Shown here: one piece after another, positions 1-54,484 of the stretch | Position numbering within the stretch: the first letter of the stretch is position 1 | How the letters are laid out: each line of letters opens with the position of its first letter | From: Chiloscyllium plagiosum | Lineage: Eukaryota | Length of the DNA stretch: 55,935 nt | Assembly (NCBI RefSeq): GCF_004010195.1 | Contig: NC_057718.1 | Coordinates: 79,260,496-79,316,430 of the forward strand | Reading direction: 5' to 3' | Translations under genes and position numbers: made by a program | Notes under the pieces: generated by a model | Seen by the model: only the letters and a program-made list of their open reading frames with translations | Told to the model about the DNA's origin: nothing | Databases searched by the model: none

Positions 1-140
1 CCGGAGCACCCGGAGGAAACCCACGCAGACACGGGGAGAATGTGCAAACTCCACACAGTCAGTCGCCTGAGGCGGGAATTGAATCCGGGTCTCTGGCACT
101 GTGAGGCAGCAGTGCTAACCACTGTGCCACCGTGCCGCCC
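1..140 (-). mobile_element. tRNA-derived V-SINE (HE1-like shark SINE), 5' part; continues beyond the window start
   Basis: Minus strand reads GGGCGGCACGGTGGCACAGTGGTTAGCACTGCTGCCTCACAG...GGATTCAATTCCC (Pol III A/B boxes), then the V-domain TGTGTGGAGTTTGCACATTCTCCCCGTGTCTGCGTGGGTTTCCTCCGGGTGCTCCGG. Other copies occur in the window. Confidence 0.9.
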
Positions 141-142
141 AG

Positions 143-198
143 GTCGAACCTCCTAGTGGTTCCCCCCCGGTAACGGCCTGTAAGAGGAAGCTTTTGAC
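143..198 (+). ncRNA. HDV-like ribozyme core of the R2 5' end (P1 5' strand not present in the window)
   Basis: P2 GTCGA(143-147)/TTGAC(194-198); P3 ACC(148-150)/GGT(158-160) around loop TCCTAGT; pyrimidine P1 3' strand TCCCCCCC; GG(169-170) for P1.1; P4 CCT-GTAAG-AGG; candidate catalytic C191. Matches the R2 ribozyme pattern ACCTCCTCGTGGT..CCC..GGTA. Confidence 0.7.
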
Positions 199-663
199 AG
201 GGAGGCAATTTTAAATTGTCTAGGGGTTGTTTTAGTCTGGTTTTATCAGTGGTTTTACCATCGATTTTATCCTTGGTTTTACCGGTACTCTACGCCACTG
301 GCAGTTTTATTGTTTCTCCCTGTCTTTTGAGCAGTACTCTGACCAGGCCGGCGAATACGACCTCAGAAAAGATACGAGACAGCTGGTGACCATTCGGTCT
401 ATATTAGAAACAAAATTTGGCAGCGGCGATTATGGCCAATACCAAAAATTCCAGTTGGGTGGGAGACCGGGTAAATAACCACCCCGCATGGTTGCTATTG
501 GCAGCATCATGCGCAAAATGTGTAGACCAAAAATGGACTGGACAATCCGTCTCGATGCAGACAGAAGAGACTAAGGATTATTCCGGCAAGGCTGTCCTCG
601 GGCAGGCACGAGGAAGCCATTAATATCGTCCAGAATGATCAGGACGCAAGTCGAAGAGAATGA

Positions 664-3600
664 CTAGTAGAGAAGGCCCCTCTGCAGTCGAGTTCATTTA
701 ACAGCCGGACAATTTTTAATTCGAATTTTAACGGGCCATTTGATTTTAGTCGATGTGGAGAATCAGAGAGAGGCGAGGAGAGGTATGAAGGTAGAATTAT
801 CCACCCAATAATTAGGGAAACCGATAAAATAGAGGTAATAATTAAATACCCGGTAGTTAATTTTAATTGTAATTATTGTAATAAGATTTATAACACTACG
901 GGCAGGTTTAGGCAGCATTTAAAGATATGTAAGGGAATTAAATCAGTTAGTTAGAGTTAGATGTAGTAAATGTGAGTGGGAAGGGAATTACCAAGCCGTA
1001 GCACGCCACTATCCTAAATGTTCTAAGAATGAGAATAATGGTAATAGTAATAGTGATAATACTAATACTAATACTACTAATAAGGAAGGAGAGTTAGAGA
1101 AACGATACCAATGTGAATTATGTCCTTTAAAATTTAAGACAACCAGAGGATTGGGGCAACATGAAAGACATGCTCATCCCATTTTAAGAAATGAGAAGAG
1201 GAAGAGAGGAACGGTAGAGAGTAGGAATAAGATGGAAAATAAGGAGGGTACTAAGAGGGGAATATGGTCTCATGAAGAGGTGGAAATGTTGCAACGACTA
1301 GAAGTAGAATTTAGTGGCTGTAAAAATATTAATAAAGTTATAGCTGAGAAATTAGGTACTAAAACGGCAAAACAAATCTCAGATAAAAGGAGGTTATTAA
1401 ATAAGCAAGGTAAAAGTCACGATAACGGTAAAGGTATAGATCAAGAACTGGTTCTTAATGAGTGATAGTGATGAAATGGATAATAGTGATCAGGAGATAA
1501 ATAGGGAAGTAGAGGAAGAAAGATTAAATGGAAAGAGAGATCAAGATAGTAGTATTATTATGGATAGAGTAGACTATAAGAGCAAGTCACTAACAGAATT
1601 AATTAAAATAGTAGAGGATGATATGGGAAGGAATAAAGGTATTAGTCAGGAATTTGAGAATATAATGGATATGATAATGGATAAATTGGGAACGAGTAAG
1701 GAGGGTGATAAAGGTAAGAAGGAGACTCATAGTAAACGAATAGGTTTGAAGCAAAGGGATAGTGGACTAAGAATGAAGAGGAAGGAAAATAAGGCTAAGA
1801 GAAGGTATAGTAGAAAGAAAGGTAAATTTAAAGAAATTCAGGTCTTATATAAAACGAAGAGGCAATACCTGGCAGGAACCCTAATGGGGGCTCCAGTTAG
1901 ATGTGAATGCCCCCTAAGTAAAGAAGATTTAGAAGACTACAATAAAGAAAGATTAACTAACTCTAATGATAAAAATAATTTGAGAGGTTTTGCCAAATAT
2001 AAAAGGCAAGGGGAGGGATCGGTGAATAGGACTCTGACAGGTCCTGTGACAGTAGAGGACGTTAAGGCGATGGACGTAAAAACTGCTGCAGGGCCAGATA
2101 GGGTAACACTGAAGGAGATAGTGAAGATATTTAATAAAGATAATACAGTACTTCCTAGAATATATACCCGATTTCATCCAAATAGTATAATACCGGATCA
2201 AATGAAAATAAGTAGAACTGTATTGATTCCCAAAGTGAGCGATGAAGACGGGTTGAAGGATATTAATAATTGGAGGCCAATAACTATAGGGCCAATTATG
2301 CTCAGAATATTTACTAAAATTATCGCCAGTAGACTAAGTAAAGTAGTAAATCGGAATAAAAGACAAAAGGGCTTTATGGCTGGTGTAGCAGGTTGCGAGG
2401 AAAATATCAAAATTCTGGAAAATATTATTAATGGGGATAAAACGAAAAAGAGATTTAGCGGTAGTTATCGTGGATTTAGCAAAAGCGTTTGACACAGTGG
2501 GCCACAAATTAATTATAATAGCTCTTAAAAGACTCCAACTTCCGTCAATATTTATTAATTTGGTTACAAATTTATATGATAATAATTTTACTCAAGTGGA
2601 AGGTTTTAAAAGTAAAACTGGAAAGATTAAAATTTTAAGAGTGGTTAAGCAAGGTGATGCATTGTCGCCGATTCTTTTTAATATTGTAATAGACCCTCTG
2701 ATAAGTACCATCGAAGAGAAGGAGAAAGGAATATTTTTAGGGATAGATAGGAATAGCTATCACTGCGTAACATTAGCGTTCGCAGACGACATAGCGTTAG
2801 TTAGCCAACCGTATGATAGTATGGTATATAATCTTAAACTTGTAGAAAAATTTTGTAAAAATACGGGAATGGAGGTTAATATGAAGAAAACGAAAGGATT
2901 TTACTTTACATATAAAAATAAGACATTTATATATAATGATAAAATTAACTGGAAGTTAAATGAAGGGAGCTTATAGTTTATAGAGCCAGGTAGTACGGAT
3001 AAATACTTCGGTGCCAAGATAGATCCGTGGATTGGCGTAGGCCAATCAAACTGGGAAAGCCAATTAGATATATGGTTAGGAAATTTAAAAAGATCCCCCT
3101 TAAAACCAGTTCAAAAAAGTAGAAATGTTAAAAACATATTTTATTCCTAGACTATATTATTACTTAGTTTTATCTGAAGTCTCTATTAATTATCTTAATA
3201 AATTAGATAATAAAATAAAAAGTGTAGTTAAAGAAATTTTACACCTCCCGCAATCCATCACGGATGGAGTATTATATGCCGTGATGGTGGCCTTGCTTTA
3301 AATAGACTGTCAACCTTTATTCCAATCTCAATAATGAGGAAGTACGGGATGCTACAGAAATCGGAGGACGAAATTTTGCATGCATCATTTCGTTTCGAAG
3401 GTGATAGTGTGGCTGCAAAAATGTATAAATTATGTAAACTTAGTGATGGAAAACATCTGGAACCCAAATATTAATCGGCGATTAGGTGAAGAGGATACTA
3501 TCAGGGAAGGCAGTGAAGATGAGATGGAAGAGTTTGGCAGTACCAACTATGCTAACTGGAGAAGTATTGAGATACAGAGATGGATGGCCCTCCCCTGTCA

Positions 3601-4277
3601 AGGAGCTGGGGTTCATTATTATAAGAATGATAGTCAACCATCCATTGGATATACTAAGTTACAATATATGAAGACATCTAAAGTTATCAATTCAATTTTA
3701 TTGAAAACAAATTTATATCCAACAAGAGTGTCAATGTCGTATGGAAGGCCATGTAATATCAAGAATTGCAGAAGGTGTAATGATACATCAGAAACGTCTG
3801 CGCATATCTCAGGGTGGTGCCCTTATGTTAAAAACATGAGCATCAAGAGGCATAATAGAGTTGCAGAAGAATTAGTTAAGTATGTAAGGAAGAATGGGTG
3901 GACAGTATATATAGAACTGAGAATTAAAGACGAAGCCGGGAAACTTTGGATACCGGATCTAACTTTTAAGAGAGAACACCAGGTTGTTGTTGTGGATGTA
4001 ACTGTTAGAACAGACCTTCAGATCAACTCGCTTGAATCAGCATGGGAAGAAAAGACAAACAAGTATAAACATCTAGGAAAAGAGATAATGGACCTCATTG
4101 GCAGAGGAACGATATCCTTTTATGGTTTTGTGATAAGAGCCAGAGGGAAGTGGTTCGAAAAGAACACAGAGTTGATGAAAGACCTCGGGTTCTCGAAATT
4201 TAAATCTTTTGCAGAGTATCACAACCCTTGTTTTGTCTTTGACCCTTGAACTTTTACGGATTTTTATGGACTCTTAA
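664..4277 (+). pseudogene. Disrupted R2 ORF (ZF-Myb-RT-CCHC-RLE polyprotein); true start uncertain
   Basis: Pieced together from ORF-track segments 1151-1465, 1458-2492, 2431-2976 and 3380-4249 plus hand translation. Frameshifts near 950, 1460, 2440, 3118, 3278, 3480 and 4220; in-frame TAG at 2974-2976; R2-like C-terminus LELLRIFMDS* ends at 4277. Confidence 0.85.
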
Positions 4278-4670
4278 TTTCTCCTATTGACGTTATTTAA
4301 TAATGTTTTAATAAGTTTTAGGTATTTTAATAGTTTTAATTAATGATTTTAATAGATTTTAATGGTTTTAATAATAAAACTATAGTGTTTTAGATCACTT
4401 AGTTAAAAAGGTGGTGGGTAGATAGGGGTGTTAAAAATTAAAGAGCACGCTTCACACAACAAATGATGAGCAGTCGCCTAGTCTAACAATTGATAAGCCC
4501 AGCTCATCCCTTGCCTCGCTGAGATTATGATTCACAATGTATTTTACCGTTCCCTTAAGATCATTCCGGCTGTGGTTTCGCTGGATAGGGGTATCCATGC
4601 GTCGACAAGCGACGTTAAGATCTCGAAAAGGACATGATCCATCGCGTATGGCGAGTGCATAAAGTTAGCC

Positions 4671-5440
4671 AAATATGCCACCTAGTTCTAAACTCACCCA
4701 GGCTAGTTGAAAGACCTTTGCTATTTACCTTATCTATGCCCTTCATGATTTATAAACCTCCAAGATCACCGCTCAACCTCCTACACGCCAGAGAAAAAAG
4801 TCCTAGCCCATCCAGCCTCTCTTGATAACTCAAGCCCTCTACACCCAACAAGTTTCTCTTTTCTGAACACTCTACAATTTAATATTATCCTTCCTATAGC
4901 TGGGTGACCAGAACTGTATACAGTGCTTCAAAAAGCAGCCTCAACATCCTGTACAACCTCAACATGACATCCCAACTCCTATACTCAAAAATCTGAGCAA
5001 TGAAGACAAGCTTTCCTTCTTAACCACCCGGTCTACCTGTGATGGAACTTTCCCAAAAAAAAACTAGTGTATTTCTCTATTCAACAACACTACCAGAGCT
5101 CTACCATTAACTGTTTAAGCGCTACTCTTATTTGCCCTACTAAAATGGAAAACCTCACATTTAATCGGAATTAAACTCCATCTGCCACTCTGCAGCCCAC
5201 TAGCCTAGCTGATCCCATTGTTATCTTAAATAACCTTCATGTTGACTAGATCACCAATTTGTGTAATCTACAATCATATTAAAAATGCCTTCTAAATTCT
5301 CAACCAAATCATTTTAGAATACTGAACAGTGGACCCAGCACCAATTCCCGCAGAACACCATTGGTCATAGGCCTCCAGTCTGAAAAACAACCCTTTGCTA
5401 CCACCCTTTATCTCCTAGCATCAAGACAATTTTGTATCCA
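4671..5440 (-). mobile_element. CR1/HER1-type LINE fragment abutting the R2 3' end
   Basis: TATGCCACCTAGTTCT...GACCAGAACTG...CCTGTACAACCTCAACATGAC...TAAACTCCATCTGCCAC is colinear with the CR1 copies at 15.8-16.6 kb and 51.2-52.0 kb. Confidence 0.8.
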
Positions 5441-5757: not shown

Positions 5758-5927
5758 CCCCAAAACACCAAATCTTTCACAGAAGTCCCATCCACAAAGG
5801 AAATCAATCTCATAGTTATGATTGAGAATAACTATGGCATTCTCTTTACCGTACTTAATATAATTCCTTTGGTCAGTATAGAGGGTACATTCTGTACCTG
5901 ACCACCATTCCAGCAACCACACCAATT
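5758..5927 (-). CDS. AGPAT4: 1-acylglycerol-3-phosphate O-acyltransferase 4 (LPAAT delta), second coding exon (170 bp)
   Basis: Encodes (Q)LVWLLEWWSGTECTLYTDQRNYIKYGKENAIVILNHNYEIDFLCGWDFCERFGVLG with the acyltransferase NHxxxxD motif. Acceptor ttctttaaatttcAG, donor GGG|GTAAGT. Phase matches the upstream exon (C|AA = Gln). Confidence 0.92.
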
Positions 5928-5955
5928 CTGAAATTTAAAGAAAAACAAAAAAAAT

Positions 5956-10139: not shown

Positions 10140-11762
10140 TCAAAAGTTGATCAGGAAGCTGATTACCATTAGAATGGTGCTAGAAAAGCACAGCCGGTCA
10201 GGCAGCATCCGAGGAGCAGGAAAATTGACGTTGAGCAAAAGCCCTTCATCAGGACTGAAAGCAGGGAGCCTCCAGGATGGAGAGATAAATGGGATGGGGG
10301 TGGGGGTGAAGGTGATAGGCGTGGGGGAGTGAGAGGAGACAGCGCGCGCGAGAGAGAGAGAGAGCGCGAGAGCAGCGAGATGAGGAAACTGAAGTCCACA
10401 TTCATGCCCTGGGGTTGAAGTGTTCTGAGGCAGAAGATGAGGTGTTCTTCCTCCAGGCGTTGGGTGGTGAGGGAATGGCGGTAGAGGCAGCCCAGGATCT
10501 GCAGGTCTGTCAGTCATCGGCAGAGTGGGAGGGAGAGTTGAAATACTGGGCCTCTGAGCGGTGGGGTTGATTGATTAGATTAGATTCCCTATAGTGTGGA
10601 ACAGGCCCTTTGGCCAAACCAGTCCACACCGACCCTCTGAAGAGTAACCCACCCAGACCCATTTCCTTCTGACTAAATGCACCTAGCACTACAGGCAATT
10701 TAACATGGCCAATTCACCTGACCTGCACATGTTTGGACTGTGGGAGGAAACTGGAGCACCCAGAGGAAACCCATGCAGACACTGGGAGAATGTGCAAACT
10801 CCACACAGACAAACAGTCACCCGAGGCATGTGCAGGTGTTCCGGAGATGTTCCCTAAAGTGCTCTGTGAGAAGGCGTCCAGTCTCCCCAATGTAGAGGAG
10901 ACTGCATCGGGAGCAACAGATACAATGAATGACATTGGTGGGTGTGCAGGTGTAAAAAAACTTTGATGGATATAAAGGCTCCTTTGGGGCCTTGGATGGA
11001 GGTGAGGGGGGAGGTATGGGCACAGATTTAGTGATTCCGGTAGTGGCAGGGGAAGGTGCCAGGAGGAGGGGGAGGTGGCAGATGACAGGGTTTATGCAAA
11101 AGGTTGGTGTGATGGAACTGGTCCTCATGGGAGCAGATACGGTGGAGGCAGAGGAATTGGGAATACGGGGTAGCATTTTTGCAGGAGGTAGGGTAAGAAG
11201 AGGTGTAATCCAGTAGCTGTGGGAGTCGGTGGGTTTGTAAAAAATGTCAGTGTCAAGTCAGCCGTCATTGATGGAGATGGAGAGGTTCAGGTGAATTTAA
11301 AAGTCGGGGTGGAATGTTGATGAATTGCTCAACCTCCTCGCGGGAGCAAGGAAGAGGTGGGGAGTGGTGCTGGCGTAACTACGAAAGATGGACTATTCTA
11401 CGTAGCTGACGGAGACAGGCATAGCTGGGCGGAGGAAGAGGTGCCCATGGCTACCCCTTTGGTCTGGAGAAAGTGGGAAGATTTGAAGGAGAAATTGTTA
11501 AGGGTGAGGACCAGTTCAGCCAAAAGAATGAATGTGTCAGTGGAAGGGTACTGTGGGGGATGTCGGGAGAGGAAGAAAAGGAGGGCTTGAGGCCCTGGTC
11601 ATGGTGGATGGAGGTGTAGAGGGATTGGATGCCCATGATGAAGAGGAGGCATTAGGGGCCAGGGAAACTGAAGTCTTGGAGGAAGTGGAGGGCATGGGTG
11701 GTGTCTCGAATGTATATGTGGAGTTCCTGGACTAGCAGGGATAGGACAGTATTGAGGTAGGT
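10140..11762 (-). mobile_element. Penelope-like element (RT + Cys-containing GIY-YIG), degraded, interrupted by a SINE
   Basis: Minus-strand fragments MGIQSLYTSIHHDQGL and NNFSFKSSHFLQTKGVAMGT (PLE RT), NVIHCICCSRCSLLYIGETGRLLTEHFREHL (GIY-YIG). Terminal CCTGATGAAGGGCTTTTGCTC hammerhead-like remnant near 10230-10253. Confidence 0.85.
10573..10827 (-). mobile_element. V-SINE (HE1-like) nested in the Penelope-like element
   Basis: V-domain GGGAGAATGTGCAAACTCCACACAGAC and (AATCT)n tail. Confidence 0.85.
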
Positions 11763-13993: not shown

Positions 13994-14190
13994 GACCCTC
14001 CAAAGTGACCCACCCAGACCCATTTCCTTCTAACTAATGCACCTAACACTATGAGCAATTTAGCATAGCCATTTCACCTGACCTGCACAACTTTAGATTG
14101 TGGGAGGAAACCGGAGCACGCGGAAGAAACCCACACAGACACGGAGAGAATGTGCAAACTCCACACATACAGTCGCCAGAGGCTAGAATC
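13994..14190 (-). mobile_element. V-SINE (HE1-like), partial
   Basis: Same V-domain and body as 1-140 and 10573-10827. Confidence 0.85.
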
Positions 14191-47009: not shown

Positions 47010-47225
47010 CCATAAAATGAAATTCCTACAGTGCAGATAGAAGCCATTTGGCCCATTAAGTCTGCATACCCTCCAAAGAGTATCCCAACGAAACCTAGCC
47101 CCCTACCCATATCCCCGTCATCCCCACATTTATCATGGTCCATCTTTGGGCTGTGGGAGGAAATCCCGAGCACCTGGAAGAAACATTCAGACACAGGGGC
47201 GATTGTGAAAACTCCACAGAGAATG
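47010..47225 (-). mobile_element. V-SINE-like element, degraded
   Basis: CTGTGGGAGGAAATCCCGAGCACCTGGAAGAAAC...AAACTCCACAG. Confidence 0.65.
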
Positions 47226-54143: not shown

Positions 54144-54484
54144 GGGTGGCACGATAGCTCAGTGGTTAGTACTGCTGCCTCAGCACCAGGGACCCAGATT
54201 CCATCCTTGGGCAACTGTCTGCATGGAGTTTGCACATTCTCCCAGTGTCTGCACGAGTTTCTTCTGGGTGCTCCAGTTTCCTCCTATAGTCCACAGATGT
54301 GATGGTTAAGTGGACTGGGCAATTTATCATAGCCAGAGTCTAGGGAAAAGGGGGCTAGATTGATTAACCCTGCTATAGTGATTAACCCTCCATGGCTATA
54401 GGGAGGGTGGGATACCTCTAGGGAGGGCTGGTGTGGACTTGATAGGCTGAATGGCCTGCTTCAACACTGAAGGGAATCCTGTGA
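54144..54484 (+). mobile_element. V-SINE (HE1-like), roughly full length
   Basis: GGGTGGCACGATAGCTCAGTGGTTAG A-box, V-domain GGAGTTTGCACATTCT, tail GAATGGCCTG..CACTG.AGGGA. Confidence 0.85.

What the first reader, a model, noticed from the sequence alone, without database searches (positions are those of the whole stretch)
143..198. HDV-like ribozyme core at the R2 5' end, missing its P1 partner strand
Seen: P2 GTCGA/TTGAC, P3 ACC/GGT with loop TCCTAGT, TCCCCCCC, GG, P4 CCT/AGG and candidate catalytic C191. Established: R2 RNAs self-cleave from the rRNA co-transcript with HDV-like ribozymes, often using upstream 28S sequence (GGCGGGA) as the P1 5' strand. Inference: TCCCCCC looks like a one-mismatch complement of GGCGGGA, so the ancestor probably relied on 28S co-transcription. 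The P1 5' strand is either lost or displaced upstream by the SINE that ends at 140.
Basis: partly seen in the sequence, partly recalled or inferred. Interest (0 to 1): 0.72.

Follow-up and report, generated by a model that had tools for sequence, protein, structure and literature searches.

The report
Broken shark R2 ribozyme, misread register
This is the front end of a dead copy of a shark R2 retrotransposon, carrying a likely self-cleaving RNA of a well-known type that is predicted to be inactive here because its first seven bases are missing and a short repeat has landed inside it, so the feature itself is ordinary.

Summary
The likely catalytic base is C352 (CGAA), not C191. P2 pairs 141-147 with 356-363, and P4 is a rod of about 180 nt (174-350) that contains C191 and TTGAC. 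The window 141-365 fold has z -4.3.

Sister copies carry their own P1 strand: 12 of 26 start with GGGGGGA, a 7-bp partner of TCCCCCC, so the family does not need 28S sequence for P1. A contig bridging the gap before the window shows that this copy's leader survives upstream of a 317-nt antisense SINE but starts just after the G-tract. P1 was lost by 5' truncation, not displaced. The ORF is frameshifted and the element lies antisense in a host intron.

The family resembles published bamboo-shark R2s. Of side interest, only 4 of 26 sampled 5' ends sit in 28S sequence. No cleavage was tested.

The parts
1..140 (-). 5' part of a 317-nt SINE (HE1-like, name recalled) inserted antisense at the J1/2-P2 boundary of the R2 leader, with AG on both sides; the rest lies upstream of the window
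   Evidence: Bridging contig L032; four more partial copies in the window at 78-86%
71..77 (+). GGCGGGA inside the antisense SINE, identical to the 28S -28 heptamer; a possible substitute P1 5' strand with one C-C mismatch
   Evidence: duplex -8.0 kcal/mol; not the best local candidate, two G-rich 7-mers score -9.3
141..147 (+). P2 5' strand AGGTCGA
   Evidence: Pairs with 356-363 in 186 of 189 cells, 184 Watson-Crick
148..160 (+). P3 (ACC/GGT) and L3 (TCCTAGT); family L3 is TCC(T/A)CGT, this copy has A for C at 155; U151 and G156 are retained
161..170 (+). P1 3' strand TCCCCCC, one extra C in this copy, and the P1.1 GG at 169-170
171..351 (+). Long P4 rod with base helix 174-180/344-350; C191 pairs with G331 and GAC 196-198 with GTC 322-324
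   Evidence: Base-helix pair probabilities 0.87-1.0; consensus fold; C191-G331 in 25 of 25 rows
352..355 (+). J4/2 CGAA with the predicted catalytic C352
   Evidence: Across 28 rows, second position T13/G10/A4 between C (24) and A (24), A (27), one gap; CTAA at the same place in four published shark or ray R2s
356..363 (+). P2 3' strand T(A)CGACCT with A357 bulged
664..4249 (+). Frameshifted R2 ORF: three zinc-finger motifs, Myb, reverse transcriptase, C-terminal part
   Evidence: ORF pieces in different frames; weak zinc-finger and Myb hits, RVT_1 E 2e-25; best PDB matches are R2 proteins, E 6e-34
4666..4674 (+). 3' junction TAGCCAAAT, a 9-nt match to the 28S sequence downstream of the R2 site, followed by non-rDNA
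5758..5930 (-). Exon of the host acyltransferase gene (AGPAT3/4-like, name recalled; borders approximate); the next exon lies about 9.7 kb before the window, so the R2 is intronic and antisense
   Evidence: (weak Pfam Acyltransferase hit, E 0.09)

Best explanation
This is a truncated, SINE-interrupted and likely inactive copy of the 5' HDV-like ribozyme of a shark R2 retrotransposon family whose intact copies are predicted to self-cleave at their own first G. In intact copies the element's GGGGGGA pairs with TCCCCC(C/T) (P1) across a 95-nt J1/2. AGGTCGA pairs with T(A)CGACCT (P2), a rod of about 180 nt forms P4, and C352 of C-N-A-A is the predicted catalytic base. Cleavage would release R2 RNA from the rRNA co-transcript with no 28S bases attached, so second-strand priming by microhomology would give ragged 5' junctions. 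This copy likely arose from such an event at a non-rDNA site and lost exactly the 7-nt P1 strand. It then took a SINE in the leader and decayed. Shown: the sequences, junctions, computed folds and family counts. Inferred: cleavage, the cleavage site, the order of events and inactivity.
For: Family G-tract: full GGGGGGA in 12 of 26 leader-bearing copies, 3-5 G in 9, at most 1 G in 5. P1 forms in the nested fold of 5 of 5 full-length copies folded. The bridging contig is identical to window 1-1784 and overlaps the far side of the gap for 1,301 bp at 99.8%; its leader starts at TGTGAC with no G-tract and no 28S match. The variable base after the C fits the extruded U77, and the two As fit the A-minor motif described in PMC3386971. 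Published R2-1_CPl and R2-1_CPu show the same layout, and CPu has an A-T pair for G176-C348. In R2-1_STig the sequence after P2' matches window 364-381 (by eye). Ragged junctions, also in the 4 copies in 28S, fit cleavage at the element end in the model of PMC3774820.
Against: No Rfam HDV-type family matched window 1-3000 (E up to 10) or 8 loci that include full-length 5' ends (E up to 1). C191 is invariant in 28 of 28 copies, while C352 is C in only 24 of 27; two of the three exceptions are C to T at a CpG. Covariation is modest: score reached by 3 of 500 shuffles, but pairs with a double change by 138 of 500; most core pairs never vary, and the structure was partly derived from these sequences. 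R2-1_CPl has an A-C mismatch at that P4 pair. The shuffle patterns were written after the match was seen, and a looser version occurs in 299 of 20,000 shuffles. The upstream junction rests on one contig. No cleavage or expression data.
Confidence: 0.86

Rival explanations
1. One reading: a compact ribozyme ending at 198, with catalytic C191, P2' TTGAC and P1 supplied by 28S GGCGGGA.
For: All letters are present. C191 is invariant in 28 of 28 copies and the 5-bp P2 can pair in 129 of 140 cells. Four copies do lie downstream of 28S sequence, and a 28S-derived P1 is the commonest R2 arrangement (PMC3774820).
Against: No A follows C191 in 27 of 28 copies (CTT or CTC). P2 is worth -2.7 and P4 -0.8 kcal/mol, with pair probabilities 0.0. 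Five copies with TTAAA break P2. The pattern appears in 58% of shuffles and shows no covariation (207 of 500). The 28S heptamer gives a C-C mismatch where the element's G-tract pairs fully.
Confidence: 0.03
2. This copy is a working chimeric ribozyme: the antisense SINE supplies GGCGGGA (71-77) or another G-rich 7-mer as a new P1 strand to the R2 core.
For: GGCGGGA lies 64 nt upstream of P2, within the known J1/2 range of 23 to over 700 nt (PMC3774820). P2, P3, P1.1, P4 and CGAA are intact in this copy.
Against: One C-C mismatch in P1; a one-mismatch P1 gave no cleavage for the horseshoe crab R2 until corrected. With the SINE included, the distal P2 falls to probability 0.02 in the nested fold. 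L3 carries a C-to-A change. The host gene is transcribed on the other strand, and no plus-strand transcription is known.
Confidence: 0.06
3. The fold is a relic in the whole family: the long P4 and competing hairpins prevent cleavage, and the G-tract is only the end point of reverse transcription.
For: The J1/2 leader holds a hairpin that competes for the P2 5' strand in the nested folds. No Rfam hit. All sampled copies differ from the window by 7-24%.
Against: Full-length copies end sharply at the G-tract, as expected of a cleavage site. The core is kept between subfamilies and in two published species. P4 is highly variable among R2 ribozymes (PMC3774820).
Confidence: 0.05

Closest known systems
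R2-1_CPl and R2-1_CPu (bamboo-shark R2s, Table S2 of PMC13188248)
   Same: Same leader, core, long P4, CTAATACGACCT end and three-finger N-terminus by eye. CPu shows GGGGGGAT at its 5' junction.
   Different: They are listed with 28S flanks (CPu on both sides; for CPl the upstream flank was shown). The window copy is off rDNA, truncated, SINE-split and frameshifted. The passages seen give no ribozyme fold for them.
R2 ribozymes that cleave at the element's 5' end (Drosophila; sea squirt B and C; PMC3774820 Figs 7-8)
   Same: Element-encoded P1, variable 5' junctions, and a 5' end resembling a duplicated 28S segment.
   Different: Vertebrate lineage-A-type element, P4 of about 180 nt, many full-length copies outside rDNA.
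R2 ribozymes with 28S-derived P1 cleaving at -28 (zebra finch; by P1' sequence also R2-1_SCa, R2-1_HSa, R2-1_CMi, R2-1_STig)
   Same: Same P3/L3/P1.1 core and C-N-A-A junction.
   Different: Their P1' complements GGCGGG and their P4 regions are about 15-35 nt. Here P1' is TCCCCCY, which pairs with the element's own G-tract.
HDV antigenomic and genomic ribozymes
   Same: Nested double-pseudoknot layout, U-G pair in L3, catalytic C followed by one variable base and two As (PMC3386971).
   Different: Much longer J1/2 and P4, a bulged A in P2, no Rfam match.
Non-specific R2 families R2NS-1_SMed and R2NS-1_CSi (PMC5035012)
   Same: R2-clade elements found outside 28S genes.
   Different: Here some copies do sit at the canonical 28S site and many others keep a short TAG(CC) junction, so specificity looks relaxed, not lost.

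Membership tests
HDV-like ribozyme (family's intact form) | P1 of 6-7 bp starting at the cleavage-site G | tested here: met
   Full GGGGGGA in 12 of 26 copies; 7 of 7 pairs in 9 of those 12 and 6 of 7 in 3
HDV-like ribozyme (window copy) | P1 of 6-7 bp starting at the cleavage-site G | tested here: not met
   The leader starts after the G-tract, 0 of 7 pairs; only mismatched substitutes lie upstream
HDV-like ribozyme | P3 of 3 bp, L3 with the U-G pair, P1.1 CC/GG | tested here: met
   P3 81 of 84 cells, P1.1 52 of 54 cells; U151 and G156 present
HDV-like ribozyme | P2 of at least 5 bp closing the pseudoknot | tested here: met
HDV-like ribozyme | J4/2 with catalytic C, one variable base and two As | tested here: met
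   C352-G-A-A; C191 is followed by TT or TC
HDV-like ribozyme | Match to a curated covariance model | tested here: inconclusive
   No HDV-type Rfam hit; the long J1/2 and P4 inserts may explain this, which was not tested
HDV-like ribozyme | Self-cleavage that depends on the catalytic C | not testable with these tools
   Needs a transcription-cleavage assay
R2 retrotransposon | Zinc fingers, Myb domain and R2-type reverse transcriptase | tested here: met
   the zinc-finger and Myb hits are below the curated cut-offs and the ORF is broken
R2 retrotransposon | Insertion at the canonical 28S site | tested here: inconclusive
   Met by 4 of 26 5' ends and 3 of 30 3' loci; not met by the window copy
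R2 ribozyme with 28S-derived P1 | P1' best paired by upstream 28S, with uniform 5' junctions | tested here: not met
   The element G-tract pairs better, and the junctions differ among the 4 copies in 28S

The most novel reading that the evidence does not exclude
This shark R2 lineage captured its P1 strand from 28S into the element, so its ribozyme can cut R2 RNA out of any read-through transcript. That freed a vertebrate R2 to spread as full-length copies, and perhaps to propagate, outside rDNA, including head-to-tail arrays in which each unit could release itself.
Probability: 0.2. Interest if true: 0.55.

Novelty: new member of a known kind. Interest (0 to 1): 0.24.

Why it matters
The window copy itself matters little: it is a dead element, antisense to its host intron. 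The corrected fold matters for anyone testing it, since a C191U control or an RNA ending near 200 would mislead. The family looks like a vertebrate case of the published model in which a duplicated 28S segment becomes the element's own P1. Its many dispersed full-length copies bear on how faithful R2 targeting is, a practical question because R2 proteins and ribozymes are used for transgene insertion.

Tried and rejected
Rfam scans gave no ribozyme family.

A local hairpin 177-201 seen when only 60-240 was folded (z -1.79) vanishes when the full region is folded.

An intermediate register of my own (catalytic C258, P2' TCGATTT 261-267) was rejected. It paired in 188 of 191 cells but only 123 were Watson-Crick, its probability was 0.0, and it is not kept in R2-1_CPl or R2-1_CPu.

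The second core-like string at 11333 lacks P3 and P1'.

The sequencing-run search found four contig sets holding about half of the words of a 28S-R2 junction; the RNA rows had small or no shares. No reads were laid, so the junction has no read-level check and expression is open.

PMC3308841 was not held. The look-up of earlier findings returned nothing. No covariance model was built, because searching the same copies with it would be circular.

Full report
Observation. Downstream lies a frameshifted ORF with zinc-finger, Myb and reverse-transcriptase parts, whose best solved relatives are R2 proteins. Three finger motifs plus Myb point to lineage A (inference from the classification in PMC13188248). 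Rfam gave no ribozyme hit on window 1-3000 or on 8 of the 30 loci from the first search.

Sister copies. A search of the own genome with 141-480 gave 41 matches at 76-100% identity; only 40 of 79 candidates were scored and 30 loci fetched. Most continue upstream into a shared leader of about 95 nt. Of 26 leader-bearing loci, 12 begin with GGGGGGA, 3 keep five Gs, 1 four, 5 three and 5 at most one. GGGGGGA pairs with TCCCCC(C/T) at -14.3 kcal/mol, the 28S heptamer GGCGGGA at -8.0 with a C-C mismatch. P1 formed in the nested minimum-energy fold of all 5 full-length copies folded. So P1 is element-encoded in this family.

This copy. The window follows an assembly gap. Contig L032 bridges it: 1,784 of 1,784 bases are identical to the window start, and 1,301 bases match the other side at 99.8%. 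In it the leader is present but begins at TGTGAC, directly after unrelated DNA, with no G-tract and no 28S match. A 317-nt antisense SINE lies between the leader and position 141, with AG on both sides; the name HE1 is recalled, and one search gave a listing only. The SINE displaced J1/2, whereas the P1 strand was lost separately, most likely at insertion (inference). This copy also has A for C at 155 in L3 and an extra C in P1'. It lies between two exons of a minus-strand acyltransferase gene, so the host pre-mRNA carries the antisense strand.

The correct register. Published shark R2s gave the lead. In Table S2 of PMC13188248, R2-1_CPl and R2-1_CPu share the leader and core and end in GG-CTAA-TACGACCT; R2-1_STig and R2-1_SCa have CTAA after a P4 region of about 30 nt, followed by sequence like window 364-381 (by eye, cells cut at 400 characters). 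In the window this is C352-G-A-A, then T356, bulged A357 and CGACCT, pairing with 141-147.

Counts across copies. The count used 28 rows (L001 left out as a duplicate of L002, L010 as non-homologous at its 5' part). The distal P2 pairs in 186 of 189 cells (184 Watson-Crick) against 129 of 140 (102) for TTGAC. Position 353 varies (T13, G10, A4) between a C and two As, which fits the extruded base and A-minor adenosines described for HDV (PMC3386971).

Folding and chance. Window 141-365 folds at z -4.33, 0 of 200 shuffles.

Covariation. Alignment A1 holds the window plus 24 loci; L010, L019, L028 and L029 were dropped for rearrangements. RNAalifold recovers P2, P3 and the rod. This is modest support, since the copies are related and most core pairs never vary. 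Against my reading, C191 is invariant (28 of 28) and C352 is not (24 of 27); C191 pairs with G331 in 25 of 25 rows, and two of the three C352 exceptions are CpG transitions. CPu has an A-T pair in place of G176-C348, while CPl has an A-C mismatch there.

Mechanism. PMC3774820 reports that R2 ribozymes cleave either at the element end (variable junctions) or upstream in 28S (uniform junctions), that P4 is highly variable, and that a duplicated 28S segment can become the element's own P1 by a compensatory change in P1'. Here the junctions are ragged even in the four 28S-flanked copies. The element's first 16 bases match the 28S segment from -28 at 12 positions with one gap (compared by hand). 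Six of those matches are forced by P1 pairing, so this is suggestive only. Four other cartilaginous-fish R2s keep a P1' complementary to GGCGGG. By coincidence the antisense SINE carries GGCGGGA at 71-77; a chimeric ribozyme is unlikely for the reasons listed under rivals.

Dispersal. Of 26 5' ends, 4 follow 28S sequence, 6 follow another R2 3' end, 4 share one flank and 12 have unique flanks. Of 30 3' loci (43 matches, 40 of 121 candidates scored), 3 run into 28S, 10 share one flank, 3 are incomplete and 14 are unique; 9 of the 14 begin with TAG or more of TAGCC (two read by eye). The 28S flanks are 85-93% identical to that of L003 and look like dispersed pseudogenes. True rDNA arrays may be missing from the assembly, which would inflate the dispersed share. 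The TAG junctions suggest off-target insertion guided by 28S-like microhomology rather than full loss of specificity (inference). Non-specific R2 families are known in flatworms (PMC5035012) and sponges (PMC13188248).

Literature seen. PMC3774820: abstract and parts 1-5 of 7 of the text. PMC13188248: passages and the Chondrichthyes rows of Tables S2 and S7; its other supplements and all figures were not seen and may bear on the novelty of the fold. PMC5035012, PMC3386971, PMC11331408 and PMC12222951: passages. PMC2911107: listing only. Searches listed no paper that by title or abstract describes this family's ribozyme or its dispersal; the library lacks most subscription papers.

Verdict. A real but ordinary feature: a broken member of the known R2 HDV-like ribozyme class, with the catalytic half misread by the first stage. 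The host is probably a bamboo shark or a close relative (inference from family resemblance). Interest 0.24.

Noticed in passing
L011-L014, L018, L022 (5' junctions): Head-to-tail R2-R2 junctions on unplaced contigs: a 3' UTR runs directly into the next leader. Four have a 23-nt partial leader placed before the G-tract, and two lack the G-tract.
   Followed up: partly
L047, L049, L050, L053, L055-L059, L061 (3' flanks): Ten R2 3' ends share the same downstream flank, mostly 90-96% identical over up to 1.5 kb (L047 about 84% over 0.4 kb). It looks like antisense L1-type ORF2 (recalled motif). Five lie on one chromosome, suggesting DNA-level duplication of one insertion.
   Followed up: partly
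L016, L021, L027, L029 (5' flanks): Four copies share one upstream flank and a 3-G start, probably duplicates of a single insertion.
   Followed up: no
L003, L019, L026, L030, L034, L042, L051: R2 junctions inside diverged 28S fragments, several on chromosomes, probably dispersed rDNA pseudogenes.
   Followed up: partly
L007 and L028, 5' flanks: Non-rDNA insertion sites whose upstream bases partly resemble the 28S target (TAACTAT in L007, CTTAA in L028).
   Followed up: no
window 10574-10827, 14008-14189, 47141-47221, 54144-54321: Further partial copies of the SINE that splits the R2 leader, 78-86% identical.
   Followed up: no
L032 (G000:C87935): This unplaced 7,030-base contig closes the N gap directly before the window.
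   Followed up: yes
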